Shown here: piece after piece, positions 61 to 29,475 of the stretch
Layout of the letters: every line of letters starts with the position of its first letter
Position numbering within the stretch: position 1 is the first letter of the stretch
Assembly: GCA_015272195.1 (NCBI GenBank)
Contig: JACYMC010000023.1
Span: forward strand, 5,352 to 69,351
Length of the DNA: 64,000 nt
Reading direction: 5' to 3'
From: Candidatus Sericytochromatia bacterium
GTDB taxonomy: Bacteria > Cyanobacteriota > Sericytochromatia > UBA7694
Program-made: the position numbers and the translations under genes
The notes under the pieces: model-generated
What the model saw: the letters and a program-made list of their open reading frames with translations, nothing else
Told to the model about the DNA's origin: nothing
The model's database searches: none

Positions 61-1053
61 ATGTCTGTTCCCTTACAAATCCTGGCCATGGGCAAATACC
101 TGCCGCCCCGACAGGTCAGCGCTGCTGAACTGGAGGCCCGGCTGAATCTCAGTCACGGCTGGATTGAAGCCAAAAACGGGGTCAGCGTGCGCCATTACGT
201 CGATGGCGAAAGCAATTCAGATCTGGGGGCCAAGGCCCTGCAACGGGCCCTCGACAAGGCCGGCCTGGCCTATGAGGAACTGGATCTGCTGATCAATGCC
301 TCTGGCTCCTACGATTACCCGATTCCTGAAACCTCAGCTTTGATTCAGGATAAAATGGGCCAGGGCAACTCCGGCATGCCCAGTTTTACCGTCGATGCCA
401 CCTGCCTGAGCTTTGTCACCGCTCTGGATGTGGCGGGGGCCTTTATCGCCAGCGGCCGCTACCGCACGATTGCGATTGTCAGCTCTGAAGTGGCCTCCAA
501 ATCACTGAATCCTGCAGAAAAAGAAAGCGCCACCCTGCTGGGCGACGGTGCAGCTGCTGCGATTGTGCGCCGGGCCCCTGAGGGCAGCCCCTCGGCTTTG
601 CTGAGCAGCGTCATGGAAACCTATGGCAGCGGGGCCATGTACACCCACGTCAAGGGCGGCGGCAATGTCTGCCACCCGCGTGATGCCGGTGTGCGCGACA
701 GCGACTTTACCTTTCATATGGACGGCCCGGCCGTGCTGGGCAGCGCGTTTCGCCGCCTGCGGCCCTTTGTCAAAAAACTCTTTGGCCCGCTGGATTTTAG
801 TTTGCAGGAGGTCGACCTCTTTGTGCCGCATCAGGCCAGCAAAGTGGCCCTCGAAAAAGCCCAGCGCTTTTTTCGCCTGCGCGACGAGCAGTTTGCCAAC
901 TATCTCGCTCAGCACGGCAACTGTATTGCGGCCTCGATTCCCATGGCCCTGCATGATGCGATTGAAGCCGGACGGATTCAACGCGGTGGGCGCATCTGCC
1001 TGCTGGGCACGGCGGCCGGGCTATCGGTCGGCGGTGCCGTGCTGATTTACTGA
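61..1053 (+). CDS. 3-oxoacyl-ACP synthase III-like condensing enzyme (KAS III / FabH family)
   Basis: 330 aa. Thiolase-fold motifs: active-site Cys in 'VDATCLSF', His in 'VPHQAS', Asn in 'GNCIAAS'. Stop overlaps the next gene's start (TGAGATG). Confidence 0.7.
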   Translation: MSVPLQILAMGKYLPPRQVSAAELEARLNLSHGWIEAKNGVSVRHYVDGESNSDLGAKALQRALDKAGLAYEELDLLINASGSYDYPIPETSALIQDKMGQGNSGMPSFTVDATCLSFVTALDVAGAFIASGRYRTIAIVSSEVASKSLNPAEKESATLLGDGAAAAIVRRAPEGSPSALLSSVMETYGSGAMYTHVKGGGNVCHPRDAGVRDSDFTFHMDGPAVLGSAFRRLRPFVKKLFGPLDFSLQEVDLFVPHQASKVALEKAQRFFRLRDEQFANYLAQHGNCIAASIPMALHDAIEAGRIQRGGRICLLGTAAGLSVGGAVLIY

Positions 1054-1054
1054 G

Positions 1055-2206
1055 ATGCAGCGGGTTCTGTTTACCGGCGGCCGCAGTCCAGCCACCCTGG
1101 CCCTGCTGCGCCTGTTTGCCCAGGCCGGGCATCACTGCCAGGTGGCCGAAAGCCTGCAGCCCAGCCTGGCCGGGGCTTCACGCTATTGCGCCAAAAACCA
1201 CCGGCTGCCCCCACCCCGGCAGCAAACCGGGGCGTTTATTGCCCGGCTGAAAGCGCTGCTGCTGCACGAAAAAATTGATTTGCTGATTCCCACCTGCGAA
1301 GAAACTTTTTACGTTTCACGCTTTATGCGCGAGCTGGAGAGCACCGGCTGCCGGGTATTCACCAGCAGCATCGACCTGCTGACCCATCTGCACAGCAAAT
1401 ACCAGTTTAATCAGCTGCTGCGCACCCTCAAGCTGCCGGCCCCTGAAACCGAACGCTTTGATAATCTGGAACAATTGCTCGCCCGTCTGCCCGAATGGCA
1501 GGCCTATGTCTTAAAACCGGAGTTTTCACGCTTTGCCAGTCAGGTGCTGATCCGCCCCCAGCTGCAGCAGGTGGAGTACCTGTCGGTCACCTCGGAGCAG
1601 CCCTGGGTGTTGCAAACCTTTTTGCCCGGACCGCAGTTCTGCTCTTACTCCATCGCTCAGAACGGCCGTTTGCGCGCCCACTCGGTGTACCCGACCCGCT
1701 ATACCGCAGGGCAGGGTGCCACGATTTATTTTGAAGCGGTACAGGTGCCTGAAATTGAAGCCATCGTGGCCAAAATTGTGCAGAGCCTCGACTATACCGG
1801 GCAGATCTCGTTTGATTTTCTGTTTTCAGACGGCCTGTATTATCCGATTGAGTGCAACCCGCGCACCACCACCGGGACCTTTTTGTTTCAACCCGGCGAC
1901 CAGCTGCCCGACAGTTTTTTGCCTGAACAGCAAGCCATCATTTATGCCGCAGCGGCCCAGCCCGTCAGCCTGACCCTGGCCATGCTGCTCTACGCCCTGC
2001 CGCAGCATCTGCTGCAACTGCCCGCCCTGCTGCGTGATATGCACAAGGCCCAGGACCCCCTTTGGCAGCTGGCTGACTTTGCCCCTTTTCTGGCCCAGTT
2101 TGGCATGCTGGGGCAAACCTTCTGGCGGGCCAAACGGCAGGGGCTAAGCCTGCTGGCCGGCTCTACCCACGATATCGAATGGAACGGTTTCTGGCACGAA
2201 AGCTGA
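1055..2206 (+). CDS. ATP-grasp domain protein
   Basis: 383 aa. 'YVLKPEFSRFASQVL' and a later 'YYPIECNPR' look like the ATP-grasp nucleotide-binding core. Starts 1 nt after the KAS III stop. Confidence 0.5.
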   Translation: MQRVLFTGGRSPATLALLRLFAQAGHHCQVAESLQPSLAGASRYCAKNHRLPPPRQQTGAFIARLKALLLHEKIDLLIPTCEETFYVSRFMRELESTGCRVFTSSIDLLTHLHSKYQFNQLLRTLKLPAPETERFDNLEQLLARLPEWQAYVLKPEFSRFASQVLIRPQLQQVEYLSVTSEQPWVLQTFLPGPQFCSYSIAQNGRLRAHSVYPTRYTAGQGATIYFEAVQVPEIEAIVAKIVQSLDYTGQISFDFLFSDGLYYPIECNPRTTTGTFLFQPGDQLPDSFLPEQQAIIYAAAAQPVSLTLAMLLYALPQHLLQLPALLRDMHKAQDPLWQLADFAPFLAQFGMLGQTFWRAKRQGLSLLAGSTHDIEWNGFWHES

Positions 2207-2314
2207 AGAATTTCTGCTGCAGCTGTGCATTGGACACGTTGGCCCCTGCAGAGAAGGTGTTACACTGTCAAAAAACAGCAATGAAACCATTTATACAAGG
2301 ATAATAAACGCAAA

Positions 2315-3256
2315 ATGACTCCATTGGTCAGTATCAAAGTATTTGGCGTCGGTGGCAGCGGCGGCAATACCATCAACTATATGCGGGCCGCCGACTTTGA
2401 AGGTGTTGAATTTATTGCCGTCAACACCGATGCACAGGCCCTCTCACTGGTAAACACCGAAGAGCGCATTCAGATTGGCAACCGCCTGACGCGCGGCCTC
2501 GGTGCCGGCGGGGACCCCAACGTAGGCTTTAAAGCCCTCGAAGAAAACCGCGACGACATGAACCACTTCCTGCAGGAAACCGATATGGTCTTTATCACCT
2601 GCGGCATGGGTGGCGGTACCGGTACCGGTGCAGCCCCTGCCCTGGCCCAGATGGCCAAGAGCCAGGGGGCCCTGACGGTTGGTGTGGTCACCCGGCCCTT
2701 TCTGTTTGAGGGCAAGCGCCGCAAAGATCAGGCCGATGCGGGCATTCAGCGCATGCTCAACAGCGTGGACACCCTGATTGTGATCTCCAATGACCGCTTG
2801 CTGCAAAGCGTCAAAGGCGGTCTGGCCGTCAAAGACGCTTTTAAAGAAGTCGATAATGTGCTCTTTCAGGCCATTCAGGGCATTTCAGACATCATCAATA
2901 TCCCCGGTCTGATCAACGTGGACTTTGCCGACGTCAAAGCCATTATGAGCGATGCCGGCGTCGGGGTGATGGGCGTGGGCATCAGTTCCACCGAAGTCGA
3001 GCACCCGGCCGTGGAAGCCGTCAAAAATGCCATTCAGAACCCCCTGCTGGAATACTCCATTGACGGGGCTGTGGGCGTGGTGTTTAACATCACCAGCGGT
3101 CAGGATCTCTCATTGCATGAGATCAACCAGGCGGCAGAGGTGATTTATAATACGGTGAATCCGGATGCCAACGTGATTTTTGGTACGGTCATTGACGAAA
3201 ACATGAAAGACAGCGTCAAAGTCACCGTCATTGCCATTGTGGGCAAGCACCTCTAA
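2315..3256 (+). CDS. ftsZ: FtsZ-family tubulin-like GTPase lacking the C-terminal linker and tail (core domain only, 313 aa)
   Basis: 'FGVGGSGGN' at the N-terminus, tubulin signature 'GMGGGTGTGAAP', T7 loop 'NVDFADV'. The protein ends where the FtsZ globular core ends. Confidence 0.8.
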   Translation: MTPLVSIKVFGVGGSGGNTINYMRAADFEGVEFIAVNTDAQALSLVNTEERIQIGNRLTRGLGAGGDPNVGFKALEENRDDMNHFLQETDMVFITCGMGGGTGTGAAPALAQMAKSQGALTVGVVTRPFLFEGKRRKDQADAGIQRMLNSVDTLIVISNDRLLQSVKGGLAVKDAFKEVDNVLFQAIQGISDIINIPGLINVDFADVKAIMSDAGVGVMGVGISSTEVEHPAVEAVKNAIQNPLLEYSIDGAVGVVFNITSGQDLSLHEINQAAEVIYNTVNPDANVIFGTVIDENMKDSVKVTVIAIVGKHL

Positions 3257-3729
3257 AAAGAGGCTTCTTCAGGCTCGCTTTCCAGCGGGGCGACAGGCGT
3301 CTGCACCGCCCCGGGAATGCGCCAGGCACTGACCAGGGAGCGGGCGGAAAAGGTCACAATCATCATTGATAAAAACAACAAATTGGGCAGGAACCAGTTG
3401 GGAAACGGCTGGTTCCTGTACTTTTTAAGCACCGAAAGCGTGGTCAGGGCCACGAGAATGCAGCCTGTCAAAACAAACTTGGCCAGGTTGTGATGTTTTT
3501 GCACCACTTCAATGGCAGGTGCCGACAGGTCTGCAATCAAAGCTGCCTTGAGCGAAAAGCCGACACCATAGGGTACGACCAATAAAACAAGACAGGCCAC
3601 AAAAGCCCAGGCTGTAAAACGTTCAAGTTGTTGATCTTTGCGCAACAGGCTGAGCACACCAATCATGGCGGTGACTAAAAACGCAAAGATAAAAACATAG
3701 CTTCCCCAGATGTGAAGCAGCTTCAGCAT
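3253..3729 (-). CDS. Integral membrane protein, 4-5 predicted TM helices
   Basis: Hydrophobic segments throughout. Tightly spaced behind the upstream minus-strand gene. Confidence 0.4.
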   Translation of the reverse strand: MLKLLHIWGSYVFIFAFLVTAMIGVLSLLRKDQQLERFTAWAFVACLVLLVVPYGVGFSLKAALIADLSAPAIEVVQKHHNLAKFVLTGCILVALTTLSVLKKYRNQPFPNWFLPNLLFLSMMIVTFSARSLVSAWRIPGAVQTPVAPLESEPEEASF

Positions 3730-6660: not shown

Positions 6661-7415
6661 CCCAGCCAGGTGACCAGAGCTGAGGTCAAAAAGTAGTTCA
6701 CGCAGACAATCAACAGAATGGAGTGCACCACCGTGGTATTGGCCGCTTTGCCCACACCCAGGGCGCCACCGGAGACATTGTAGCCTTTATAACAGCTCAT
6801 CAGTCCCACAATAATACCAAAAACACAGGCTTTCAACATGCCGCCCCAGATATGTACCATCTGAGTAAAACTGAAAAGATTGGCAATAAAAACGCCAGAG
6901 TTCAGGCCTTTTAAACCCACAGCCACCGCATAGCCCCCGAGAATCCCCGAAAAACTGGCAATCGCATTAATCACCGGCACCATCACCGACAGGGCAATCA
7001 GGCGCGGCACAATCACATACTGAAAAGGATCCACAGCCATGACTTCCATGGCGTCGATTTCCTCTTTCACGCGCATGGTACCGATTTCACCCGACACCGC
7101 ACTGCCAGCCTGAGAGGCCACCATAATACTGACCAGGGTGGGAGATAACTCTCTGAAAATTGCCTCTGACAGCAGACTGCTCAGCAGGCGCTGGGCACCA
7201 AAAAGCTCAAAGACATGTAAACCCTGTAGCGTCGTGACCATCCCGGTAGGAACCACAATCGCCAACACGGGCAAAATACACTGAAAGCCCGTCATATGCA
7301 TGGCGCGCAGGGTCTCGCGCCAGAAAAAAGGCCGCCTGAACAGGGCCTGTACAATCTGTATGCAAAACAGACCAAACAGCCCCACCTGCTCAATAAAGCG
7401 CTGCAGGGGCTGCAT
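6657..7415 (-). CDS. mlaE: MlaE/YrbE-family ABC transporter permease (phospholipid transport)
   Basis: 252 aa, multi-TM, typical MlaE length and conserved 'EIDAMEVMA' region. No MlaF or MlaD gene adjacent. Confidence 0.7.
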   Translation of the reverse strand: MQPLQRFIEQVGLFGLFCIQIVQALFRRPFFWRETLRAMHMTGFQCILPVLAIVVPTGMVTTLQGLHVFELFGAQRLLSSLLSEAIFRELSPTLVSIMVASQAGSAVSGEIGTMRVKEEIDAMEVMAVDPFQYVIVPRLIALSVMVPVINAIASFSGILGGYAVAVGLKGLNSGVFIANLFSFTQMVHIWGGMLKACVFGIIVGLMSCYKGYNVSGGALGVGKAANTTVVHSILLIVCVNYFLTSALVTWLG

Positions 7416-8098
7416 CAGATCAGTTGATCGGTGCTGACAATATCTTCGTCTGCAGCCCGTGGGCGATGGGTAATAATCTGACGGGTGCCCAGATCTTCCA
7501 CACTCAGGCGACCCCGCAGTGCCAGTTTCTCAACCCGTGTCATGGCCTGGGTATTCATGTCAATAATCCAGTCGTCCTGACCCGCCGGTGGCATCGGTGT
7601 AATGGCCTGCTCTGGCTTGATTTGCTCCAGAATGGTGCGGTCATGGATGATATACGTCAGCAGGTCGCTCACAAACACCAGGTTGCGCTGAAAATGCTGA
7701 ACGCGTTCTTCCGACAGGCCAGGCAGCCCCCCGTAATTAATATAGTCATTCTGCCAATTGGCCTTCAGATCGCTTAAGACGCGATCCAGTAAAGCATAGG
7801 GGTCCAGAAAACCCCAGTTTTCTTTGACATGAATGCCCAGCGGCGAGAAAGAAGCCGGCGTGGGACGCAGCGCGTCTTTAATGGCCTCGCCTTTCCAGTT
7901 ATCGTATTTAACCAGGGTCAGCCATTCACCCGTATTAAAAGGCTCAAAGCCTTTAATATCGGTCACCACACGATCCGTCCGCTGATAAATCTGGCGTTTG
8001 ATGCGCAGGGCATTCAACTGATTGCCCTGCAGCCGGGTTTCAACAGACAGGCGGTCGTCACCTGTGATTTCAACAAAAAAGATGGGCATGGTCAGCAC
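7415..8098 (-). CDS. Hypothetical protein
   Basis: 227 aa ORF whose stop overlaps the mlaE start (ATGA). No recognisable motifs. Confidence 0.4.
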   Translation of the reverse strand: MLTMPIFFVEITGDDRLSVETRLQGNQLNALRIKRQIYQRTDRVVTDIKGFEPFNTGEWLTLVKYDNWKGEAIKDALRPTPASFSPLGIHVKENWGFLDPYALLDRVLSDLKANWQNDYINYGGLPGLSEERVQHFQRNLVFVSDLLTYIIHDRTILEQIKPEQAITPMPPAGQDDWIIDMNTQAMTRVEKLALRGRLSVEDLGTRQIITHRPRAADEDIVSTDQLI

Positions 8099-8114: not shown

Positions 8115-9734
8115 TTACTTTGACTGTAAAATCCGCGGTGTTACCATAATAACAATTTCCACATCTTCCTGCGTCTTCTGGGTGTCTGAAAACAAAGCGC
8201 CCAGCAAAGGGATATCACCCAACAGGGGAATCCGGTTGCGGGTTTCAGTATCAGCTTTACGCATCAGACCGCCAATGATCACAGAATCGCCATCCGGCAC
8301 TCTCAGCACCGTAGACAGCGAGCGAGTGTTGCGTTCAGGCACGGTTTGCCCGCCCACACTGACCACTTCACCCCGCGTGCTGATATTCGGCATCAGCTGC
8401 ATGGTGATAACGCCTTCCTCCACGTCAATAAACGGCGTGATCTCAAGGGTTTCACCAATATCCAGGGTCTGAACCGTCTGCACGGCGGTGGTCGCCGTGG
8501 TGGTTGTGCTCAGAATCGGAAACTGGGTGGTAGAGTCAAAACGTGCCGTAATCCCATGCTGAATGGTTAAACGGGGATTGGTCAGCACCCGTGCCTGACT
8601 GTCGCGGATCAGGGCGTTTAAACGCGCATTAAAGTTGGGGGCAAAACGATTCAGCGAGTTAAAAGAAATCACGCCCTCGCCATCTCCGGTCAGCGGGTTA
8701 CCCGGACCACGAGCAGCCTCAGCCAGTGTATTGTTAAAACTGGCGCCCATTTTATCCTGACCAAAGCCGTAGCTGACGCCCAGCTCCTGGCTGGCGCGCT
8801 GGGTCAGCTCAATTAACTTGATTTCGACCACCACCTGAGGCAAAGGCCGATCCAGGATAGGAATCATGGCATCAGCAATATCAATGGCTTCCTGGGTACC
8901 AATCACAATCAGGGTAGAGGTGCGCTGATCCATCATCAACTTGGGTTGAGGACTGACACCTCGGCTCTGAAACACCGCTGTCAACTGCTGAGCGATGGGC
9001 AAAGGCATCACGGGCCAGCCCATCTGATTTGCCCCCTGTTGTTGCATCATCGGCATCTGCTGCATCTGCTGCTGCATGGGCATACCCAGATTGGCTTCTG
9101 CGCGCATCACCTGAGTCGGAAACTGATTGTACAGCGTGTAAGTTTTAATAATGGGGGTTGAAAAGCCCAGCTGCTCCATGCGTTCAGGGGTTGAAATCAA
9201 AATGGAGTTATACACCCGTCGACCCGTTAAGCCACTCAGGCGCATCACCATTGAAAAGGCTTCGCTGACAGGGATATCTTTGAGTTCAAGATAGGGAATC
9301 ACCAGACGCAAAGGTCCGGCTGAGGCACCGGAAGCAGTTCCCGCACTGTTGGCAACGCCCCCCCCGCTGTTGTCTCCAGACATCTGGCGCTCCAGTGCGG
9401 CCAATGGATCGTCGGAATCACTGGCGCTATAATCGTCTCCGGACGAACCGCTTTGAGGGACACCGTCCACCATAAAAATCAGGTTGAGATTGGCCTTTTG
9501 AGCCAGACCCCTCAGAATAAACTCCACAGGCTGATTGCGCAGAACCAGGCTGACAGTGGGGTCTTTCTCCAATTGAAAGGCCTTGCGAATGGTCAGCGCA
9601 TCGACCGTCCCGGAGACTGGCGGGCTGATCAGACGAGAGTCACGCGCCAGCGCCGCAGTCGAAAAATTGAGCAGGCAAAAGGCCACCAGAGCAGCAATGC
9701 CTTTGCGTTGTTTACTTGAAACGTTCAATGTCAT
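8115..9734 (-). CDS. pilQ: Type IV pilus secretin PilQ-like, with a Q/M-rich low-complexity insert
   Basis: Signal peptide. C-terminal secretin domain '...GGLMRKADTETRNRIPLLGDIPLLGALF...VTPRIL'. Last gene of the pilM-N-O-P-Q series. Confidence 0.8.
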   Translation of the reverse strand: MTLNVSSKQRKGIAALVAFCLLNFSTAALARDSRLISPPVSGTVDALTIRKAFQLEKDPTVSLVLRNQPVEFILRGLAQKANLNLIFMVDGVPQSGSSGDDYSASDSDDPLAALERQMSGDNSGGGVANSAGTASGASAGPLRLVIPYLELKDIPVSEAFSMVMRLSGLTGRRVYNSILISTPERMEQLGFSTPIIKTYTLYNQFPTQVMRAEANLGMPMQQQMQQMPMMQQQGANQMGWPVMPLPIAQQLTAVFQSRGVSPQPKLMMDQRTSTLIVIGTQEAIDIADAMIPILDRPLPQVVVEIKLIELTQRASQELGVSYGFGQDKMGASFNNTLAEAARGPGNPLTGDGEGVISFNSLNRFAPNFNARLNALIRDSQARVLTNPRLTIQHGITARFDSTTQFPILSTTTTATTAVQTVQTLDIGETLEITPFIDVEEGVITMQLMPNISTRGEVVSVGGQTVPERNTRSLSTVLRVPDGDSVIIGGLMRKADTETRNRIPLLGDIPLLGALFSDTQKTQEDVEIVIMVTPRILQSK

Positions 9735-9741
9735 TCGCCTC

Positions 9742-10503
9742 CTAATACGACGGGGTCTTGGGTGTTGGTAAAGTTAAAGTCCCTTTTTGTTGACCACGGG
9801 ACAGGGTCACGCGCTTTTGCTCAAAGTGAATGGATGTCACCAGGATGTTTCCTGACAAGCGTTCACCCACTCGAACCATTTCAGTGGCGCCATTAACCTC
9901 AATCAGCGCAATGGGATCAATACCACCATCAATCAGGCCTTTCAGACTAAGACCCTGTTCGAGTGGGGCAACCACAGGCACAGCGGATGCTGGCGTAGGA
10001 ACAGGACGGGGTGTGGCCACAACCTGTACTGCAGCCTCTTCATCAGGGGGCAGCATGAGCTGGGGTAAAGCCAGCTGCTCAGGTGAAATCGCGGTTTCAA
10101 ACGCTGGCAAATTGGGGGGAAACATCGATTTAAAGGGGTCCATTCTTCCGGCATGCAGCTGTGCTTCGCGCAATACAGCGTCAGGCGAAGTGGCAGCAAT
10201 GCCAAAGGTCTCCATTGCACTGGCTGTAGGCGAAGGTTCAGGTGTCGGGCTGGGAGAAGGACTGGCGCTCGCAGCGGGTGAGGCACTGGGCTGAGCGCCG
10301 GGAGAAGCGCTGGCATCCGGGCTGGCACTGGCCGCGCTGCTCGGTTGAGAAGAAGGCTCTCCAGAAGCCGTTTCAGCGGGTGTTGGCGTCGCACTGGCGA
10401 TAACATCAGGCCCCGTCGCATCTTCTGGCAAAGAAACGGAAAGGAGCAAGAGGCTGGTGGCCGCAATCAGCAAAGCGGGCAAAATCACCATATGTTTATT
10501 CAT
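9742..10503 (-). CDS. pilP: PilP-like pilus assembly lipoprotein with a Pro/Ala/Ser-rich linker
   Basis: Signal peptide, long PAS-rich linker, C-terminal beta-rich domain. Sits between pilO and pilQ. Confidence 0.5.
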   Translation of the reverse strand: MNKHMVILPALLIAATSLLLLSVSLPEDATGPDVIASATPTPAETASGEPSSQPSSAASASPDASASPGAQPSASPAASASPSPSPTPEPSPTASAMETFGIAATSPDAVLREAQLHAGRMDPFKSMFPPNLPAFETAISPEQLALPQLMLPPDEEAAVQVVATPRPVPTPASAVPVVAPLEQGLSLKGLIDGGIDPIALIEVNGATEMVRVGERLSGNILVTSIHFEQKRVTLSRGQQKGTLTLPTPKTPSY

Positions 10504-10505
10504 GA

Positions 10506-11156
10506 CTAGCTTCCTCCCGCCAGCAAAAAGGCTTTCAGTGTAAAGGAGACGTTCACTGGGGTATAAAGATCATCCTGGTCTTCAACCGGCAAAATCGAAA
10601 GTTCATCAAGACCCAGCGTCCGCTCATAGCTTTCGTAGTCTTGCAGGAGTTTGATCAAATCAGGATAAGAAATCCGGGAAAGCCGAACATTAACAGGCAG
10701 TTGTTTAAGCTGTTTGGCCGTTTCTGAATCTTCGGCATCTTTTAAAGACGCCGGCAGATTAAAGTTCACGATATCGCGGGGGCGAAACTCATTCAGCACG
10801 GCGGCATTACCATAAAGCGCTTTATTTTCCGTGATCTCTTCCACGTCAAGCAAAAGAGGCGCAATATTCGCTTCCTTCGGTATCTTGCGACGCAAAAGAA
10901 CCAGCTTGTCTTCAATATCTTTCAACTCTTTTTTAAGTTCAGGCAAATTTTTTACCTGCAATTCTTTGGTCTGGATTTCGGTTTCCTGCTCGGCAATCTC
11001 GGCTTCCAACGCCTGTAAATTGGTCCATTTGGGGTAGAGATCAAAATAACCACCCGCAAGCAAAATAGCCAGTGCCGTCAATCCACCGGCCAGCACCTTT
11101 TGAAACGGCGTAATATTGTCTGTGTCAATAGTGCGGCCAAAAAGTTCCGTCTTCAT
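10506..11156 (-). CDS. pilO: Type IV pilus assembly protein PilO-like
   Basis: N-terminal TM helix followed by a coiled coil ('LEAEIAEQETEIQTKELQ'). Operon position after pilN. Confidence 0.55.
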   Translation of the reverse strand: MKTELFGRTIDTDNITPFQKVLAGGLTALAILLAGGYFDLYPKWTNLQALEAEIAEQETEIQTKELQVKNLPELKKELKDIEDKLVLLRRKIPKEANIAPLLLDVEEITENKALYGNAAVLNEFRPRDIVNFNLPASLKDAEDSETAKQLKQLPVNVRLSRISYPDLIKLLQDYESYERTLGLDELSILPVEDQDDLYTPVNVSFTLKAFLLAGGS

Positions 11157-11159
11157 CGT

Positions 11160-11711
11160 TTAATTTGCCTCAATTTTGCAGGTAATCACAAAGTTTGTTG
11201 CAGCTTCCGGGGTCTCTTTTACGCTGGATAAGAGCTTGACACCGCCAATCATTTTAGAATTCTGCAGATTGACCAGAAACAGCGCAACCGAACGGTGATC
11301 TGTGGCTGTACCGTTTAATGAAACAGTACCCTGGGCATCAAATTTCAAGTCTTTAATCTGTACATCCAGAGGCATCAGGGTACGAATCTCTTGCAAAAGA
11401 TAGGACCAGCGATAGGTCTCCCCGGTGACATAGCGCAAGATTTTTTGTTCCACGAGCAAACTTGCTTTCTTGGCTTCCAGCTCCTTAATCTCTTTGAGCT
11501 GAGCTTCCAGCTTTTTAATTTTGGCTTCATTATCTGCTTTTGTTGCTTCAGCCGTGCTGATAAAACTGTTCAGCAAAGTGGACAAAGCCAGCCAAATAAG
11601 GGTGGCTGCCAGAACAGAGCCAATCGCTCCCGCCAGCGGTTTGTCAATGGCAAGCCCTCTGCCTTTGACGGCCTCCTTGCGTTCAACGCCTAAAAGGTTA
11701 ATATTGATCAT
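11160..11711 (-). CDS. pilN: Type IV pilus assembly protein PilN
   Basis: N-terminal 'MININLLG' (PilN INLLP-type motif), single TM, coiled coil. Follows pilM. Confidence 0.6.
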   Translation of the reverse strand: MININLLGVERKEAVKGRGLAIDKPLAGAIGSVLAATLIWLALSTLLNSFISTAEATKADNEAKIKKLEAQLKEIKELEAKKASLLVEQKILRYVTGETYRWSYLLQEIRTLMPLDVQIKDLKFDAQGTVSLNGTATDHRSVALFLVNLQNSKMIGGVKLLSSVKETPEAATNFVITCKIEAN

Positions 11712-11714
11712 GCG

Positions 11715-12878
11715 TCAGTTTCCTGCTATTCCTCTCCGAGCCAGTCCGATGGCGGTCGCAAAAAGAGTCGCCTGCGCTCTCAGTTCAGCCTGCGAAAACA
11801 CATCTGGGTCAAAATACAGATGTTTGATCGGATCCGCAATTTCGACATCAATTCCCAGCTGGTGCGAAAAGTACTGATCCAGACGCTTGATTTTAGCGCC
11901 CCGGTCAGAGAGCACCAGCTGCTGGATACGCGTATAATCCTGCTGGGATTGATGGAAATACTCAATCGACTTTTGAATTTCATTGGTCAGGTCTTTGAGT
12001 AAAAAGCGCACTTCTTCTGCAGCCCGCTCAACCATCGGATCTTCGAAGGTTTCGTCACCAATCACCGGAATTTCAAGGCGTTCAAAAATTGAGACCGCTT
12101 CTTCAAATTCAAGCCCCATATTACTGGCAATGGTTTCAATAAAGGTGCTGCTGCCCAGCGGAATACTCCTTGAAAAAAGCGGCGCACCGTTTTGGATGAC
12201 GTTCAGGTCTGTGGTTTCACCCCGAATCAAAATCAGAACGTTCAGCTGATCATCATTCACCTCCGCCTCTTCTTCCACGACAGGGCTCAAAGCCCGCATC
12301 ACGGCAAAAGAGGCCACATCAACAGCAACCAGCTCCAGCTCAGCCTGGGCAAAGGTTTCCAGATAGGTATCGATCAACTGCTTCTGGGCTGTCACGAGTA
12401 AAACATCGTATTTGCTCATGCCCTCTTCTTCAACAGTACCGGTAACCTCAAAGTCAATATATACATCCTGGATGGGGAAGGGAATGTAGCGTTCCGCATC
12501 ATGCAAAACCACCTCTTTAAGCTCCTTGCGTGGAATCGCCGGAAACTTAATCCGCGGACGGATAATGGCAGCCTGGCCTGAAACAGCAGTGATCACCTTA
12601 CGCGACTTAAACCCGTGCTCTGAAAGCAAAGACTTAATCTGTGCTGCGACCCTTGAAGGGTCAACGATTTCACCGTCACGCACAGCATTTTCAGGTGTGC
12701 GTACATGGGCCATACGCAACAGCTCAAGCTGATCGGGCTGATTTTTCATGGGCGCAATTTCAACAGCCAGGATAAATTCATTGGTAATATCAATACCAAT
12801 AGGCGGCTCTTTTGAAAAGGGATTTTTGAGCAAACGGGCCAGGGAGCCAGGGTTAATCTCTCGGCCAAATAGCTTCAT
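11715..12878 (-). CDS. pilM: Type IV pilus assembly ATPase-fold protein PilM
   Basis: 387 aa with an actin/FtsA-like fold ('IGIDITNEFILAVEI...'). First gene of pilMNOPQ. Confidence 0.75.
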   Translation of the reverse strand: MKLFGREINPGSLARLLKNPFSKEPPIGIDITNEFILAVEIAPMKNQPDQLELLRMAHVRTPENAVRDGEIVDPSRVAAQIKSLLSEHGFKSRKVITAVSGQAAIIRPRIKFPAIPRKELKEVVLHDAERYIPFPIQDVYIDFEVTGTVEEEGMSKYDVLLVTAQKQLIDTYLETFAQAELELVAVDVASFAVMRALSPVVEEEAEVNDDQLNVLILIRGETTDLNVIQNGAPLFSRSIPLGSSTFIETIASNMGLEFEEAVSIFERLEIPVIGDETFEDPMVERAAEEVRFLLKDLTNEIQKSIEYFHQSQQDYTRIQQLVLSDRGAKIKRLDQYFSHQLGIDVEIADPIKHLYFDPDVFSQAELRAQATLFATAIGLARRGIAGN

Positions 12879-12926
12879 GATAGGGATCCTTTGAAGTTCT
12901 TATTCTGCTTCATATTATTCATCATT

Positions 12927-13865
12927 CTACGAGATTGACTTATTAATATACCACGTCCATACACCATCACCAACACCCCACGATACCAGAGCACCCAGAA
13001 CCAGAAATGGCCCAAATGGAAAGGGCTTGCTTTGTCTGCTCACCAGGAGCAGGCCAAGACCTGCCAAAGCGCCAAGAGTAAAGGCCAATGCCAGTGCAAC
13101 AACCAATTTAGACGGCCCCAGCCAGATACCCAGGAGAATGGCAAGCTTGACATCTCCGCCGCCCATACCCTCTTTACGCAAGAAGATAATGCTAAGCAGC
13201 ATAATCAGCTCAAACAGAGCCCAGACACCCAAACCGGTGGCAAGCGCTAAAAAAAGCGTTCCTTGATATGCATTATAAAGGATCGCAATCAAAATGCTTG
13301 GGTATGTCATCACATTGAAGATAAACTGTGTATCCAAATCAATCCAGAAGATGGTCCACAACACAGCCACCAAAAACAGTGACAGCGGCAACTCAGGGCT
13401 CATGCCGGTCAGCCAGAAGGCATAACAAAACAAAGAGGCTGTCAGGGCCTCAATCAGGGGGTAGCGAAACGAAAACGCCTGTTGGCAGTGTCTGCATTTT
13501 CCTCTGAGCCAGAACCAGCTCAGTACAGGCAGATTATCGTACCATCTGACCGGCTGCTGGCAATGGCCACAGTGTGAGGCAGGAAAAGCAATGCCCTTCA
13601 AAACCAGGACCGACTCCTGCCAGAAATCTTTAAAGCAGTAGGCCACACTGAACCAGATGTCTGAGAGCACGTAGCGCAGTGCCCAGACGACACGGGCGAA
13701 AAAAGCGTCAGGAATACTCTGTTCTTCCTCCAGCTCCTCTTCTGTGCAGTCAGCCAGCAGAATAGCCGGGGTCCGAAAGATGACCACGTTTAAAAAGCTG
13801 CCAATCACCAGCCCAAAAAGAGCCACAAAAAGATAGAGAAACTCGGGGGACAAGACAGAGAGCAT
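12927..13865 (-). CDS. pilD: Prepilin peptidase (A24 family, PilD)
   Basis: Tetracysteine zinc site 'CGHCQQP...CRHCQQ', catalytic region 'GGGDVKL', polytopic membrane protein. Confidence 0.85.
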   Translation of the reverse strand: MLSVLSPEFLYLFVALFGLVIGSFLNVVIFRTPAILLADCTEEELEEEQSIPDAFFARVVWALRYVLSDIWFSVAYCFKDFWQESVLVLKGIAFPASHCGHCQQPVRWYDNLPVLSWFWLRGKCRHCQQAFSFRYPLIEALTASLFCYAFWLTGMSPELPLSLFLVAVLWTIFWIDLDTQFIFNVMTYPSILIAILYNAYQGTLFLALATGLGVWALFELIMLLSIIFLRKEGMGGGDVKLAILLGIWLGPSKLVVALALAFTLGALAGLGLLLVSRQSKPFPFGPFLVLGALVSWGVGDGVWTWYINKSIS

Positions 13866-17557: not shown

Positions 17558-18076
17558 TTAGGAAAGTGTACGGTTAAAGGACAGGTCAGTCGCAGACTCC
17601 CCAGCTTTCAAAGCGGTGGGCTTCTGTTCGAGAGACATTTCGCTTTCCTGTTTTTTCTCCTGAACTTTTTTCTGCAGGGCGTTCATGTCTTCTGTCAACT
17701 GCGCCAGAATTTTAGAAAACTCAGCAAAGAGCTCATCGACACTGACAGCATCAGGTGTAGGGGCCAGGTTAATCTGGTCTTCAAGGGCATTGGCCTGGGC
17801 CACCAGCGCACTGACTTTGGAGCTGACCAGGGCAGCGGCCTGCTGCAGATCAACCATCTCGGCATTGGACTGGGGCGGCGCAGAGCTGGCGGCGTTCAAA
17901 ACGCTACCCAGCTGAGCAAAAAGCTGACCGGCAGCACCTGTAGGCTCGGCACTGGGCTGTCCACCACTCTGCTGAGCTGACTGAGCCTGCTGCTGCGAAG
18001 CATTCACCTGTTGCTGAGCCTGGGCCAGGGCATTGGTCGTGTTCACCATTTCTGTCAGTTTACTTAAATCAATCAT
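17558..18076 (-). CDS. Gln/Ala-rich coiled-coil protein
   Basis: 172 aa with heptad-like segments. 13-nt gap from the 1181-aa gene. Confidence 0.45.
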   Translation of the reverse strand: MIDLSKLTEMVNTTNALAQAQQQVNASQQQAQSAQQSGGQPSAEPTGAAGQLFAQLGSVLNAASSAPPQSNAEMVDLQQAAALVSSKVSALVAQANALEDQINLAPTPDAVSVDELFAEFSKILAQLTEDMNALQKKVQEKKQESEMSLEQKPTALKAGESATDLSFNRTLS

Positions 18077-18089
18077 CTTTCGTCCTCCT

Positions 18090-21000
18090 TTAATTGCTAG
18101 CCACTAATTTATCTTGTACCACAGATATACTCTGCTTGGTCTGATCATAAGTCAAGGTCAGCGCACCTTCCAGACTCATGCCGTTGGGCAGACTGGTCTG
18201 ACTGGTGATCGCCAGCTGGTTGAGATTACTCAACAGACCCAGCTTGAAGATATCCCGGTATTTTTCCTGATTCAGAATCCCAATCAAAATTTCCACAAAA
18301 TTGTTGGCCGCCTTATTTGAAGAACCCGTTGTTTCTTTTGAGCTCGACAGCCTGGCAAGTTTGCTTGCGTTATCGTTTTCCACCGACAAAGGCACCATTC
18401 GCGTTTGCCAGCGGCTCTGAACCTTCAGTGTTCCTGGCCTGACAAACTCTGGCGCATATTTGGCTGCAGCCAGGTCATCATAGCCCGTAATCACTTTGGC
18501 ATTGATCAGCGCGTCAACCTCAGGTTCGTTACCCGTACCGGTTGTGACACGGATCCCTTCTCGGTAGTTATTGACACCTGCTGAGTTGATAAATGTCCCG
18601 TCTGAGGCCTGAATCGAAATGGTATTCAGACCTTCCTGCAGATAAGGCGCCATATCAAAGGTGTAATTGACATCACGTATATCGGCAGGGTAAGCGCCGC
18701 CAATAAGCGGAGCCGTTGGCGTCACCAGCACTTCGCGGCCATTAATAAAAATCTTGGGCTGGTCGTTCCCTGTACCATAATGAACCCCTGTCAGGTCAAT
18801 ACTGACATTGAACGCTTTTTTGGTATAGGTCGGACGCACCCGGCCTGTGGCGTCGGTGATCCAGTTGGTCGGGTTCTCCAATTCCAGCAAATCATCTGGC
18901 TTCAGGTGAAAGGTATTGCGGGCCTGGATCACCTGTCGGGGAGAGTTGAGCTTGCCGTAACCCGCAGCTCCGCCCACAACTTCGTCATCGTCATAGCTGT
19001 AAAGCGTGTCTTTGACCAATGGGAACCAGATAAAGCCGTTATCAGGATCACCGGCATTTGTTGTGGCCAGCAGCTCTGACTGGTACCAGTCCGTGGGCAC
19101 GGCATTGGCTGCATTGATCTCCATCACTGACGGTGGCTCAAAGTCAACGATATTGCGACTCATTTCATAAGAGCGCATCACGCCTTCATACTTGCCGATT
19201 TCAAAGCCCCCCAGAATGGGGTTGGCTTTTTTGCTGTCATTGCTGACCACGTTCAGGCCATTAAAGCTATGAATCTTGTGCAGCCCCTGAATAAACTCCC
19301 CGTTAAAGCTGTCGGTCATATTGCCCGTAGAGCGGGAAATACTGTCATTGGGATTATTGGCAGTCGGGTCAGCGTCGGGAACCCAGTCATAGCTTTTGCT
19401 CGCGTCCACCGCATTCGAGCGGGCCAGACCACCATGCACGTACATTTTACCGGTACCGTCACGCTCAATGTCATTAACCGCCGTGGTCAGGTCGTCGACG
19501 TTGGTGCGCTTGTCATTGTTAAACTCCGCTGTGCGGGTTTCTACAATGTAATGGTTAAAGAACAGCGAGCTGGTAATTTGCCCTCTGGCATTCACGCGGG
19601 TCACGTCATCCACAAGCTCGGTCTCATCAACCGTAATATCGGTGTTCAGGCCGCCGCCTGCCTCAGTCGACCGCTCCCCCATATCGACCTTGTGCTTAAA
19701 CACGCTGCCCAGCTGAATATTGGTATCAAAGAGCCGCACGGCACCGCCGCCACCGGCCTGAACTTCAACATCATAGGCCTGATTGGCGGGTGGGGTTCTG
19801 AGAATAGTTCCCTGATACCCACCGGCAGGGTCAAAGACAGGTAAGTTTACCGGGGCGTCAAGTGTTGCCACACCATTAGCATCTATAGCAATAATCGTGC
19901 GTGTTTCATCAATCGCAGGCTGTGGCGGCCCGGTATCCTGAATTCGAATTTGTGTACTTCCGGGCACGAAAGACGGAGGTATTGTGCCTAGCCGAACTTC
20001 AATAAAGTTGGGTGGAGGGCCTGCTTCTGCAGGCGTCACAGTCACAGATGTGGGAATCTGTGACGCCATCTCCAGCAAGGTGACCGGTCCAGACAAGGTG
20101 ACCACACTGCCAGCAATGCTCTGAATCACACGGGTCTGACCATCAATCGTCAGGGTATCACCAGCGCTCATGCCTGCCGTAGAGCCAAGTGTCAACTGAA
20201 TATATTCAGGCGGGTCATTAGGCGCTCCTGCTGCAGCAGAGACTGTCGTGGTGGTATTAATGGTTGATGTTGAGGTAACCTGCCGGGCATGACTCTGATA
20301 CACAATCCCGTTTTCAAGATAGGTACCCACCACATTACCGCCGACACCATTGGTATTGGAAAACAAGCCTTCATAGACATAGGTGCCACTCTGAAAGATC
20401 AGGCCGTCCACAATCTGAACTTCCCCGTCTGATACATCGGCGTTGTTACGCCAGAGGCGTGTACCCACGTCTGTGGCCACAAGATCCTGATTCAGATTAA
20501 GCTCGTTTTTCTGAGACTGGGTTAAACCCGCGGCGTTCCAGCTCTCTGGATCCAGCCAGGCTTTCTGACGGTTGACCACGGTAGTGTAATCCTGGCTGGT
20601 GCCTGAGCGCTCCAACTGATAACCTTCAGTTGGATCCGTGCTGACCCAGGCCACGCGCTGCCCCGCATCATCTCCCGAAAGGGGATAAGTCTGGTTGCGA
20701 CTGTCAGGTACATCCGTCAGATGGACCAGTTCACCGTTGATCAGGTAGTTGTCATTGCCCGCTTCGTCTGAGTTGGCCGTATAACCCACGGCGTAACTGT
20801 ACTGAATCTCACGCGGTGCAAAGTTGTACAGATAGTTGACCGTAGACCAGAAGGCCCCTGTATTAAAAGTGGTTGTTTTCTGTTCCAGCTTCTGGTTGAA
20901 GTAGGTTGGCGGGGGCGGCCCCCCTGTGATCAGAGAGGTAATACCCTGCAAAAACCCAAGAAAGCCTGGAACAGGTGCAGGCTCAGGCGGATCGTCTTCC

Positions 21001-21635
21001 ACGCGCATGGTGACAAAAATATCACCGCTGACATTGCCTGCAGCCGTGGCACTGTCTGTCAGAGAACGAAACTCAACGTTGCGGCTTCCGGCCAGCGCAC
21101 GGCCATAGCCAAAGTAACCATCATCAGCAGCGACAATCCCGTTTAAACCGTCCTGAAGATTGCCAGAATAGCCCACAGGCGCACGCCAGATGTCATTGCC
21201 ATCGTTGTCTGTCCCAAAAACCATGCCACGCTGGTCAGTGGGTCTGACACCCAGGTCTTCAAAGCCCGTCATACCTGCAATGCCTTCAATAATTTGTGCG
21301 TTATCATTGCCGTCCAGCACAACGTCTGCGCGCAGATTGGTTGCAGCACCTTCACCAATTTGCTGGGAGGTGGACACATTGAGCAGATCGGCATAGGCTT
21401 CCTGCAGTTGTTTGGTCAGCTCATTCAGGCGGTTCTGCATTTTGGCGCGATACTGATCGTTAAAAGCCTTTTCCCATTGATAATCGAGAGACGAGCGCAA
21501 CACAAAAGCGGTTTCAAGCGTGGAAGGGGTAAAGCTGCCACCCGCAACCGGCTTACTCGCCAGGCGCAATGTCGGGGATTTATTGCTGGTCAGGTTCATG
21601 GCCTGAGTGCCCACGTTAAATGCAGAAAAGCTCAT
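18090..21635 (-). CDS. Giant protein of unrecognised family (1181 aa); N-terminal helical 'DQYRAKMQNRLNEL' motif shared with operon paralogues; Gly/Thr/Asn/Asp-rich centre
   Basis: Uninterrupted 3.5-kb ORF co-directional with its neighbours. No signal peptide. The internal plus-strand ORFs are short antisense artefacts. Confidence 0.6.
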   Translation of the reverse strand: MSFSAFNVGTQAMNLTSNKSPTLRLASKPVAGGSFTPSTLETAFVLRSSLDYQWEKAFNDQYRAKMQNRLNELTKQLQEAYADLLNVSTSQQIGEGAATNLRADVVLDGNDNAQIIEGIAGMTGFEDLGVRPTDQRGMVFGTDNDGNDIWRAPVGYSGNLQDGLNGIVAADDGYFGYGRALAGSRNVEFRSLTDSATAAGNVSGDIFVTMRVEDDPPEPAPVPGFLGFLQGITSLITGGPPPPTYFNQKLEQKTTTFNTGAFWSTVNYLYNFAPREIQYSYAVGYTANSDEAGNDNYLINGELVHLTDVPDSRNQTYPLSGDDAGQRVAWVSTDPTEGYQLERSGTSQDYTTVVNRQKAWLDPESWNAAGLTQSQKNELNLNQDLVATDVGTRLWRNNADVSDGEVQIVDGLIFQSGTYVYEGLFSNTNGVGGNVVGTYLENGIVYQSHARQVTSTSTINTTTTVSAAAGAPNDPPEYIQLTLGSTAGMSAGDTLTIDGQTRVIQSIAGSVVTLSGPVTLLEMASQIPTSVTVTPAEAGPPPNFIEVRLGTIPPSFVPGSTQIRIQDTGPPQPAIDETRTIIAIDANGVATLDAPVNLPVFDPAGGYQGTILRTPPANQAYDVEVQAGGGGAVRLFDTNIQLGSVFKHKVDMGERSTEAGGGLNTDITVDETELVDDVTRVNARGQITSSLFFNHYIVETRTAEFNNDKRTNVDDLTTAVNDIERDGTGKMYVHGGLARSNAVDASKSYDWVPDADPTANNPNDSISRSTGNMTDSFNGEFIQGLHKIHSFNGLNVVSNDSKKANPILGGFEIGKYEGVMRSYEMSRNIVDFEPPSVMEINAANAVPTDWYQSELLATTNAGDPDNGFIWFPLVKDTLYSYDDDEVVGGAAGYGKLNSPRQVIQARNTFHLKPDDLLELENPTNWITDATGRVRPTYTKKAFNVSIDLTGVHYGTGNDQPKIFINGREVLVTPTAPLIGGAYPADIRDVNYTFDMAPYLQEGLNTISIQASDGTFINSAGVNNYREGIRVTTGTGNEPEVDALINAKVITGYDDLAAAKYAPEFVRPGTLKVQSRWQTRMVPLSVENDNASKLARLSSSKETTGSSNKAANNFVEILIGILNQEKYRDIFKLGLLSNLNQLAITSQTSLPNGMSLEGALTLTYDQTKQSISVVQDKLVASN

Positions 21636-21743
21636 GGGGTATGCTCCTTGGATAGATGTTCACTCGTCTCTTATCCTGCGAGAGGCCTATCTTCTGTCTG
21701 AACTAAAAGAAGTTTTAATATAAAGCCAACACAGAACTAACAA

Positions 21744-21768
21744 GCCCGAACAGTTGTCCTGTTCGGGC
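21744..21768 (-). terminator. Perfect 10-bp stem hairpin (GCCCGAACAG-ttgtc-CTGTTCGGGC) between the two giant genes; candidate partial terminator or attenuator
   Basis: Lies 14 nt downstream of the 1559-aa gene's stop on the transcribed strand. Followed by a T-rich stretch (TTGTTAGTTCTGTGTTGGCTTTATATT). Confidence 0.3.
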
Positions 21769-21781
21769 TGAAGTCGGTCAC

Positions 21782-26461: not shown

Positions 26462-26493
26462 AAAATAAGCTCCTTTGTCTTAAGTTTCCAGCG

Positions 26494-29455: not shown

Positions 29456-29475
29456 AAAACAAACCTCTTATAGAA

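What the first reader, a model, noticed from the sequence alone, without database searches (positions are those of the whole stretch)
2315..3256. Tail-less FtsZ homologue outside a dcw context, downstream of a KAS III-like / ATP-grasp gene pair
The protein has all GTP-binding and T7-loop motifs of a polymerising FtsZ but stops exactly at the end of the globular core. It has no flexible linker and no C-terminal peptide (the FtsA/ZipA/SepF docking site). No ftsA, ftsQ or mur genes are nearby; instead it follows a FabH-like condensing enzyme and an ATP-grasp ligase. This suggests either a second, specialised FtsZ-like cytoskeletal protein (compare magnetosome FtsZm) or an unusual division system.
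Basis: partly seen in the sequence, partly recalled or inferred. Interest (0 to 1): 0.55.

Follow-up and report, generated by a model that had tools for sequence, protein, structure and literature searches.

The report
Second, tail-less FtsZ in Sericytochromatia
This is a real, strongly conserved second copy of the cell-division protein FtsZ that has lost its membrane-docking tail; it sits beside a normal full-length FtsZ in a non-photosynthetic sister group of cyanobacteria, an already known kind of duplication that had not been noted in this lineage.

Summary
ORF 2315-3256 (+) encodes a 313-aa FtsZ (TIGR00065, 397 bits against a cut-off of 295). It has an intact G-box and T7 loop and ends six residues after the last core strand, with no linker or C-terminal peptide. 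It is not a truncation artefact. About 27 protein clusters of 309-323 aa (68-100% identity) from independent Sericytochromatia/Blackallbacteria assemblies end at the same place. They form a clade with 100% bootstrap and evolve under dN/dS 0.02-0.11.

It is not the only FtsZ. The source MAG very probably also encodes a 453-aa FtsZ with a Pro-rich linker and an ...LELPPFLQPRR tail. In related genomes that canonical copy sits in mraY-murD-ftsW-murG-murC-murB-ftsQ-ftsZ.

The KAS III-like/ATP-grasp pair lies upstream in 5 of 7 lineages examined. It is an independent cassette found in many phyla and lies elsewhere in Blackallbacteria. The short ftsZ keeps its own conserved -10-like motif, so a functional link is unlikely.

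The most likely role, by inference, is a GTP-dependent co-polymer partner or modulator of the canonical Z-ring, as with Rhizobiaceae FtsZ1 or plastid FtsZ1. Verdict: new member of a known kind, of moderate interest.

The parts
2315..3256 (+). Core-only FtsZ paralogue of 313 aa, with no N-terminal extension, no C-terminal linker and no C-terminal peptide
   Evidence: The translation is identical to MBF2052142.1 (P0001) from a Candidatus Sericytochromatia MAG.
2254..2267 (+). Conserved AAGGTG(T/C)TA(C/A)ACTG motif, resembling an extended -10 element (TGnTAnACT), about 50 nt before the ATG; a putative own promoter for the short ftsZ
   Evidence: In alignment A2 the motif is present in the window, L001, L003, L005 and L090 whatever the upstream gene, and is weaker in L007. 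The consensus sigma-70 scan did not call it. This is an inference, not a mapped transcription start.
61..1053 (+). KAS III-like condensing enzyme. It is a neighbour and probably not functionally linked to the short ftsZ.
   Evidence: Pfam ACP_syn_III and ACP_syn_III_C. PRK07204 scores 352 bits, below its cut-off of 402. It is syntenic in L001, L003, L007 and L096.
1055..2206 (+). ATP-grasp ligase of the PRK06849 family, immediately downstream of the KAS III-like gene (the 1055 ATG begins one base after its stop). It is a neighbour and probably not functionally linked to the short ftsZ.
   Evidence: The same pair occurs without ftsZ in Blackallbacteria (L100) and Brevibacillus (L102), where an NAD-dependent epimerase/reductase follows it.
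3253..3729 (-). Convergent gene for a 158-aa predicted membrane protein whose 3' end overlaps the ftsZ stop codon. This leaves no room for a frameshifted tail.
   Evidence: (weak DUF5823/DUF2231 hits). It is not conserved next to the short ftsZ in other loci, apart from a displaced homologue in L003.

Best explanation
The gene encodes a functional second FtsZ that consists only of the GTPase/polymerisation core. It arose by an old duplication, or an acquisition, of a cyanobacterial-type ftsZ within Sericytochromatia. It has since been inherited alongside the canonical, dcw-encoded, tail-bearing FtsZ. It keeps the nucleotide-binding loops and the catalytic T7 loop but has no linker or C-terminal peptide. 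It can therefore probably bind GTP and join FtsZ protofilaments, but it cannot dock to membrane tethers such as SepF or ZipN-type proteins. The most likely mechanism is co-assembly with the canonical FtsZ. That would dilute the density of tethering tails and tune Z-ring stability and turnover, or restrain division when the paralogue is abundant. This is what is reported for Rhizobiaceae FtsZ1 and plastid FtsZ1. Shown here: the identity of the gene, its conservation, purifying selection, coexistence with a canonical copy in the lineage, and the lack of any conserved gene partner. Inferred: polymerisation, co-polymerisation and the regulatory role.
For: It is a bona fide FtsZ core. The T4 and T7 motifs are invariant across 11 family members. 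The family comprises about 27 clusters of 309-323 aa with the same end point, from NCBI, JGI, ENA and Logan assemblies. The clade is monophyletic at 100% bootstrap, and its internal order loosely parallels that of the canonical Sericytochromatia FtsZ clade, by eye and with weakly supported internal nodes. dN/dS is 0.02-0.11 with dS of at least 0.9, similar to the canonical core at 0.04-0.05. A canonical 453-aa FtsZ, MBF2054387.1, lies 2245 accession numbers from the window protein MBF2052142.1. Three Blackallbacteria assemblies each hold a pair: PIQ25509/PIQ24292, PIW14504/PIW13708 and PIW47189/PIW44934. Two further pairs are MEZ0368731/MEZ0373592 and HEY9838940/HEY9840622. The canonical copies lie in mraY-murD-ftsW-murG-murC-murB-ftsQ-ftsZ and end in ...LELPPFLQPRR. 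No neighbour is conserved across all lineages, and two short FtsZ loci that are 96.5% identical share no flanking gene. A -10-like motif upstream of the gene is conserved. Precedent: A. tumefaciens FtsZ1 has GTPase activity, localises to mid-cell, co-polymerises with FtsZAT and is non-essential (10.1101/412759), and its overexpression blocks division (10.1101/2025.09.29.679267). Plastid FtsZ1 increases the turnover of FtsZ2 filaments (PMC3494859, PMC8142252).
Against: There is no biochemical or localisation data for any member, and Sericytochromatia are, to my knowledge, uncultured. Fifteen positions that are near-invariant in canonical FtsZ are fixed to other residues in the short clade. These include N67D in the T3 loop, P158S (IPND to ISND), R231P with a 2-aa insertion, S242N and T308I/F310G. 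Such changes could alter GTPase kinetics or the filament interfaces enough to prevent co-assembly. Same-genome coexistence rests on protein accession series, not on an inspected assembly. The placement of the clade in the tree is unresolved (14% support for its sister relation to cyanobacterial FtsZ, NJ only).
Confidence: 0.55

Rival explanations
1. The short FtsZ builds its own filament system for a task other than division, such as cell shape, positioning of a compartment or segregation. A partner that binds the globular core would anchor it. This would resemble FtsZm in magnetotactic bacteria.
For: The clade has a long stem and 15 clade-specific substitutions at otherwise conserved sites, spread over both domains and helix H7. 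Its constraint is as strong as that on the essential canonical copy. It lies outside the dcw cluster and has its own promoter-like motif.
Against: No gene is conserved next to it across lineages that could serve as tether or cargo. Pfam scans of 48 of the window's larger ORFs recognised no organelle or segregation genes. The truncated FtsZ paralogues that have been characterised act with or on the canonical Z-ring.
Confidence: 0.2
2. The short FtsZ is functionally coupled to the KAS III-like/ATP-grasp enzymes upstream. For example, it could scaffold or localise a lipid or small-molecule synthesis step, expressed from a three-gene operon.
For: The order KAS III, ATP-grasp, ftsZ on the same strand is conserved in five lineages at 84-91% FtsZ identity (window, L001, L003, L007, L096). 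No consensus terminator was called in the 108-nt gap.
Against: The adjacency is absent in L005/L006 and in Blackallbacteria L090-L092. Blackallbacteria carry the KAS III/ATP-grasp pair at a different locus, followed by an NAD-dependent epimerase/reductase, and Brevibacillus has the same arrangement. The ATP-grasp family occurs in named records from outside Sericytochromatia (Myxococcota, Chitinophagales, Paenibacillus, Brevibacillus, Calothrix, Chloroflexota), whereas the tail-less FtsZ family was found only in Sericytochromatia-type assemblies. FtsZ is far more conserved (84-91%) than the two enzymes (60-80%). The promoter-like motif is conserved whatever gene lies upstream.
Confidence: 0.07
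3. The gene is an artefact or a decaying copy: a truncated or frameshifted ftsZ, or a mis-binned fragment, with no function of its own.
For: The source is a metagenome-assembled genome. The tail is missing exactly at the domain boundary.
Against: The end point is identical in about 27 clusters from independent assemblies and sources. dN/dS is 0.02-0.11 at saturated dS. There is no tail remnant downstream, and a convergent gene abuts the stop codon. The gene lies on long contigs of 92-543 kb. The window and several of the loci carry housekeeping genes: uvrA and uvrC in the window, dnaX in L005, alaS in L090.
Confidence: 0.02

Closest known systems
Truncated FtsZ paralogues of Rhizobiaceae/Phyllobacteraceae (A. 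tumefaciens FtsZ1; S. meliloti FtsZ2)
   Same: It is a second ftsZ outside the dcw operon. It keeps the GTPase core and lacks the linker and C-terminal peptide. It coexists with a canonical dcw-encoded FtsZ, forms its own paralogue clade and carries lineage-specific substitutions (10.1101/2025.09.29.679267; 10.1101/412759).
   Different: The origin is independent. The nearest relatives of the window protein are cyanobacterial-type FtsZs at about 60% identity, not alphaproteobacterial ones. It is even more minimal, with about 5 residues before strand S1 and 5-6 after the last strand. The host has no ftsA next to its canonical ftsZ.
Plastid FtsZ1 (green lineage) / FtsZB (red algae), paired with FtsZ2/FtsZA
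   Same: This is a two-FtsZ system of cyanobacterial ancestry in which only one partner carries the conserved C-terminal tether-binding peptide. In plastids the tail-less partner co-assembles and raises ring dynamics (PMC3494859, PMC8142252, PMC12343686).
   Different: Plastid FtsZ1 retains a C-terminal extension with other motifs, whereas this protein has none. Descent from the plastid duplication was not tested here. It is very unlikely, because to my knowledge that duplication arose after the endosymbiosis that produced plastids.
FtsZm of magnetotactic Magnetospirillum
   Same: It is a tail-less FtsZ paralogue encoded away from the dcw cluster (own knowledge; the papers found mention FtsZm in the magnetosome context).
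   Different: To my knowledge FtsZm is encoded within the magnetosome gene cluster (the mamXY operon). Pfam scans of 48 of the window's larger ORFs returned no family named for magnetosome proteins, and the related loci also lack such genes.
Canonical cyanobacterial FtsZ
   Same: The cores are 58-63% identical. The T4 and T7 motifs are the same and the fold is the same.
   Different: There is no N-terminal extension, no Pro-rich linker and no (D/E)(I/L)PxFL(Q/R) peptide. It is not in mur-ftsQ-ftsZ synteny. It carries 15 clade-specific substitutions. The review-level statement that cyanobacteria have a single FtsZ (PMC11285052) does not hold for this class.

Membership tests
FtsZ (TIGR00065; Pfam PF00091 + PF12327) | Whole-protein score above the curated equivalog cut-off | tested here: met
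   397.4 bits against a cut-off of 295.2. Both Pfam domains score above their gathering thresholds.
FtsZ (TIGR00065; Pfam PF00091 + PF12327) | Tubulin signature GGGTG(T/S)G and nucleotide-binding loops T1-T6 | tested here: met
   GMGGGTGTGAAP is invariant in the family. Variants elsewhere: T1 reads GGSGGN, T3 reads GAGGDP (N to D) and T6 reads ISND (P to S).
FtsZ (TIGR00065; Pfam PF00091 + PF12327) | Catalytic T7 synergy loop NxDxxD | tested here: met
   N201-V-D203-F-A-D206 is invariant in 11 members.
FtsZ (TIGR00065; Pfam PF00091 + PF12327) | GTP-dependent polymerisation | not testable with these tools
   This requires biochemistry. It is inferred only from motif retention.
Canonical division FtsZ | Disordered C-terminal linker plus a conserved C-terminal peptide that binds membrane tethers | tested here: not met
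   The protein ends 5-6 residues after the last core strand. There is no remnant downstream.
Canonical division FtsZ | Location at the distal end of the dcw (mur/fts) cluster | tested here: not met
   Pfam scans of 48 of the window's larger ORFs found no mur or fts genes. The tailed paralogue of relatives occupies murB-ftsQ-ftsZ.
Truncated accessory FtsZ paralogues (the kind typified by Rhizobiaceae FtsZ1) | Coexists with a full-length canonical FtsZ in the same genome | tested here: met
This evidence is indirect, because no assembly was inspected as a whole.
Truncated accessory FtsZ paralogues (the kind typified by Rhizobiaceae FtsZ1) | Orthology with the alphaproteobacterial duplicate clade | tested here: not met
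   Among the 93 best listed hits outside the family, every organism-named one is cyanobacterial or Sericytochromatia FtsZ. The clade groups, with weak support, beside Cyanobacteriota FtsZ. No alphaproteobacterial sequences were included in the tree.
FtsZm (magnetosome FtsZ-like) | Encoded within the magnetosome gene cluster | tested here: not met
   The Pfam families found in the window and in the related loci include none named for magnetosome proteins.
Plastid FtsZ1/FtsZB | Descent from the plastid-lineage ftsZ duplication | not tested
   No plastid sequences were available to place in the tree. The resemblance is functional and architectural only.
Divergent FtsZ-like families (FtsZl-1/FtsZl-2; PMC2875224) | Highly divergent tubulin/FtsZ domain found in dedicated operons | tested here: not met
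   The protein is about 60% identical to canonical FtsZ and passes the FtsZ equivalog model. There is no conserved operon.

The most novel reading that the evidence does not exclude
The core-only FtsZ forms a separate cytoskeletal structure that does not depend on division. A so far unidentified partner that recognises its remodelled globular surface would anchor it. That would be a new FtsZ-based system in the non-photosynthetic sister class of cyanobacteria.
Probability: 0.15. Interest if true: 0.65.

Novelty: new member of a known kind. Interest (0 to 1): 0.4.

Why it matters
Cyanobacteria are usually described as having a single FtsZ, with two-FtsZ rings seen as an innovation of plastids (PMC11285052). 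This finding shows that a sister class of the oxygenic cyanobacteria fixed a tailed plus tail-less FtsZ pair independently and has kept it under strong constraint. It adds another natural experiment on why truncated FtsZ paralogues are retained, a question that the recent Hyphomicrobiales work calls open. It also supplies a minimal 313-aa FtsZ core with defined substitutions in the T3 loop, the T6 loop and the end of the core. These could be tested for their effects on filament dynamics. It does not reveal a new kind of division machinery.

Tried and rejected
1. Exact-sequence look-ups of the window FtsZ and of its presumed same-MAG canonical partner returned nothing. Same-genome evidence therefore had to come from accession series.

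It returned only one family member (L007) plus canonical ftsZ from many phyla. It says nothing about the family's distribution. I reused the hits as outgroups.

3. I tried to place a short and a canonical gene in one named assembly by looking up P0016 and P0034. They came from different assemblies (GCA_964342365.1 and GCA_913773825.1).

4. The metagenome scan with a family-specific pattern (NPLLEYSI[DE]GA) found only the Blackallbacteria contig that was already known.

5. The consensus promoter/terminator scan found nothing in the 2207-2314 gap. The conserved motif came from aligning the upstream regions instead.

6. The AF2 model from an 11-sequence alignment reached only pLDDT 68.9. I did not run a fold search, because the sequence match to solved FtsZ structures (E 1e-104) already settles the fold.

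7. I considered a plasmid or TubZ-like origin because a PF10134 (RPA) gene lies divergent to the short ftsZ in L005/L006. I rejected it as a general explanation. That neighbour is confined to that lineage, the locus also carries dnaX, and the protein is a true FtsZ.

8. I considered a relic of the tail in another frame and rejected it.

Full report
**Observation**

The ORF at 2315-3256 (+) is real. It has an ATG start, encodes 313 aa and has no earlier in-frame start.
- Pfam finds the Tubulin/FtsZ GTPase domain (residues 6-166) and FtsZ_C (215-307).
- The NCBIfam FtsZ equivalog TIGR00065 scores 397 bits against a cut-off of 295.
- The best solved structure is B. subtilis FtsZ 2VAM, E 1e-104, aligned over query 4-307 and chain 11-312.
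- The G-box GMGGGTGTGAAP and the T7 loop NVDFAD are intact.
- The protein ends ...VKVTVIAIVGKHL*. Canonical FtsZ reads ...ITVIATGF at this point and continues into the linker.
- An AF2 model of moderate confidence (pLDDT 68.9) puts the last strand at 301-308.
- tblastn with a canonical Sericytochromatia FtsZ, with its tail alone and with its last 25 residues finds one FtsZ hit in the window and no tail remnant.
- A convergent 158-aa membrane-protein gene (3253-3729, -) overlaps the stop codon.
Both score below the curated cut-offs of their nearest NCBIfam models.
- Pfam scans of 48 of the window's larger ORFs found no mur, ftsQ, ftsW or ftsA genes. They found a type IV pilus cluster, MlaE, an SLT transglycosylase, uvrA, uvrC, miaA and several glycosyltransferases.

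**Source and family**

The translation is identical to MBF2052142.1 from a Candidatus Sericytochromatia MAG.
- About 27 clusters at 90% identity, 309-323 aa long (three partial sequences of 286-295 aa aside), share 68-100% identity with it. They come from NCBI, JGI, ENA and Logan assemblies.
- The next hits are canonical cyanobacterial FtsZs of 360-480 aa at 63% identity or less.
- Family members end at the same place. Blackallbacteria-type members add only 8-10 residues that do not resemble a C-terminal peptide.
- In a neighbour-joining tree of 48 FtsZ cores the family is monophyletic with 100% bootstrap support and sits on a long stem. It lies beside the Cyanobacteriota clade, but that position has only 14% support, so it is unresolved. 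By eye its internal order loosely parallels that of the canonical Sericytochromatia FtsZs, though internal nodes are weakly supported (48-71%).
- Pairwise dN/dS among seven short ftsZ genes is 0.02-0.11 with dS of at least 0.9. Three canonical cores give 0.04-0.05.
- This is therefore a functional, vertically maintained gene. It is not a truncation or an assembly error.

**Is it the only FtsZ?**

No.
- A 453-aa Sericytochromatia FtsZ (P0110, MBF2054387.1) has a Pro-rich linker and ends ...DQLELPPFLQPRR. This is like the cyanobacterial tether-binding peptide.
- Its accession lies 2245 numbers from that of the window protein, which is consistent with the same MAG.
- Three Blackallbacteria assemblies each hold a short and a canonical protein within one accession series: PIQ25509/PIQ24292, PIW14504/PIW13708 and PIW47189/PIW44934. 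Two further pairs are MEZ0368731/MEZ0373592 and HEY9838940/HEY9840622.
- The canonical genes sit in mraY-murD-ftsW-murG-murC-murB-ftsQ-ftsZ in L087, L088 and L089, and in murC-murB-ftsQ-ftsZ in L097. No ftsA lies between ftsQ and ftsZ.
- The same-genome claim rests on accession contiguity. I could not inspect a whole assembly.

**Neighbours**

- GH57, KAS III, ATP-grasp and short ftsZ are collinear in L001, L003/L004, L007 and L096. In the window only the KAS III, ATP-grasp, ftsZ part is visible, because the window begins just upstream of the KAS III-like gene.
- The arrangement is absent in L005/L006, where the upstream gene is a divergent PF10134 gene. It is also absent in Blackallbacteria L090-L092, where two proteins with no Pfam match lie upstream and an aminotransferase lies downstream.
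- L005 and L090 encode short FtsZs that are 96.5% identical, yet they share no flanking gene within 8 kb.
- FtsZ is much better conserved (84-91%) than the KAS III-like enzyme (69-80%) or the ATP-grasp protein (60-64%).
- The ATP-grasp family occurs in Myxococcota, Chitinophagales, Paenibacillus, Brevibacillus, Calothrix and Chloroflexota.
- In Blackallbacteria (L100) and Brevibacillus (L102) the KAS III/ATP-grasp pair is followed by an NAD-dependent epimerase/reductase, with no ftsZ.
- Aligning the upstream regions shows a conserved AAGGTG(T/C)TA(C/A)ACTG motif, at window positions 2254-2267. It resembles an extended -10 element and is present whatever gene lies upstream.
- The enzyme pair is therefore an independent biosynthetic cassette that this sub-lineage happens to have placed next to the short ftsZ. 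A functional link is unlikely, although read-through transcription is not excluded.

**What distinguishes the protein**

- Fifteen positions that are at least 80% conserved in 36 canonical FtsZs are fixed to a different residue in the short clade.
- They are A19T, A48T, N67D (T3 loop, GAGGNP to GAGGDP), P158S (IPND to ISND), A179V and V187I (H7), A217G and L218V, R231P preceded by a 2-aa insertion, S242N (SSPLL to xNPLL), G261S, I287V, I303V, and T308I with F310G (VIATGF to VIAIVG).
- Differences from the canonical consensus are spread over both domains. The T4 loop and the T7/H8 region remain the most similar parts.

**Mechanism (inferred)**

A core-only FtsZ with an intact catalytic apparatus should bind and hydrolyse GTP and assemble head to tail. 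Without a linker or C-terminal peptide it cannot engage tethers that bind that peptide. The best-supported model is co-assembly with the canonical FtsZ, which would tune ring stability or restrain division.

This matches the characterised analogues.
- A. tumefaciens FtsZ1 has GTPase activity, localises to mid-cell, co-polymerises with the essential FtsZAT and is dispensable (10.1101/412759).
- Its overexpression blocks division (10.1101/2025.09.29.679267).
- Plastid FtsZ1 accelerates the turnover of FtsZ2 filaments (PMC3494859, PMC8142252, PMC12343686).

The alternative of a separate filament system with a new tether cannot be excluded. It has no support from gene context.

**Comparison and novelty**

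Truncated ftsZ paralogues outside the dcw cluster are a recognised phenomenon. The 2025 preprint cites at least five independent duplications. Full-text searches found no paper that treats FtsZ of Sericytochromatia or Blackallbacteria. A recent paper states that cyanobacteria have a single FtsZ (PMC11285052). I therefore class the finding as a new member of a known kind. It is an independent origin, in a cyanobacterial sister class, of the tailed plus tail-less arrangement otherwise known from Rhizobiaceae and plastids.

**Verdict**

- Interest is 0.4.

Noticed in passing
window 17558-29949 (- strand): Seven consecutive ORFs on the same strand (172, 1181, 1559, 391, 332, 222 and 157 aa) have no Pfam hit at all. 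They lie near the type IV pilus genes, in the part of the window with the lowest G+C (about 0.49-0.53, against 0.57-0.62 beyond 30 kb).
   Followed up: no
window 8115-13865 (- strand): A type IV pilus assembly cluster: secretin PilQ (8115-9734), a 253-aa ORF without a Pfam hit, PilO, PilN and PilM, followed by a prepilin peptidase (12927-13865). Between MlaE and PilQ lies a 227-aa ORF (7415-8098) with no Pfam match.
   Followed up: partly
window 33058-35073, 35070-37121, 58193-60373 (- strand): Three paralogous proteins of about 670-730 aa combine N-terminal TPR repeats with a C-terminal GT41 (O-GlcNAc-transferase-like) domain. Two of them are adjacent and overlap by 4 nt.
   Followed up: no
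window 61-2206; L100 4899-8174; L102 4016-7171: The KAS III-like/ATP-grasp pair is a cassette found in several phyla. In Blackallbacteria and Brevibacillus it continues into an NAD-dependent epimerase/reductase. In the window lineage that third gene is missing from this position and the short ftsZ follows instead. The product of the cassette is unknown.
   Followed up: partly
window 2225-2237 (and L001, L003): A second conserved element, GTGCAT(T/C)(G/T)GACAC, lies about 25 nt upstream of the -10-like motif. It is seen only in the loci where KAS III/ATP-grasp precede the short ftsZ. It could be a regulator site or simply reflect close relatedness.
   Followed up: no
L087, L088, L089, L097 (canonical ftsZ loci of Sericytochromatia): In the dcw cluster a POTRA-domain ftsQ is followed directly by ftsZ with no ftsA. 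To my knowledge oxygenic cyanobacteria also lack ftsA. The genes downstream of the canonical ftsZ encode large proteins with no Pfam match (for example 1584 aa in L087).
   Followed up: no
L005 6424-7782 and L006 4211-5569: A 452-aa protein with a PF10134 (replication initiator protein A) hit is encoded divergently, immediately upstream of the short ftsZ, in this lineage (L005/L006 and one further contig for which no DNA was returned). The locus also carries dnaX, so it looks chromosomal.
   Followed up: no
L001 and L003, 2400-5700; L096 1-767: A DUF4912 protein (L003 only; the corresponding L001 gene has no Pfam hit) and a GH57 branching-enzyme-like gene precede the KAS III/ATP-grasp/short-ftsZ block (only the GH57 gene is visible in L096). 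The window starts too late to show whether it has them as well.
   Followed up: no
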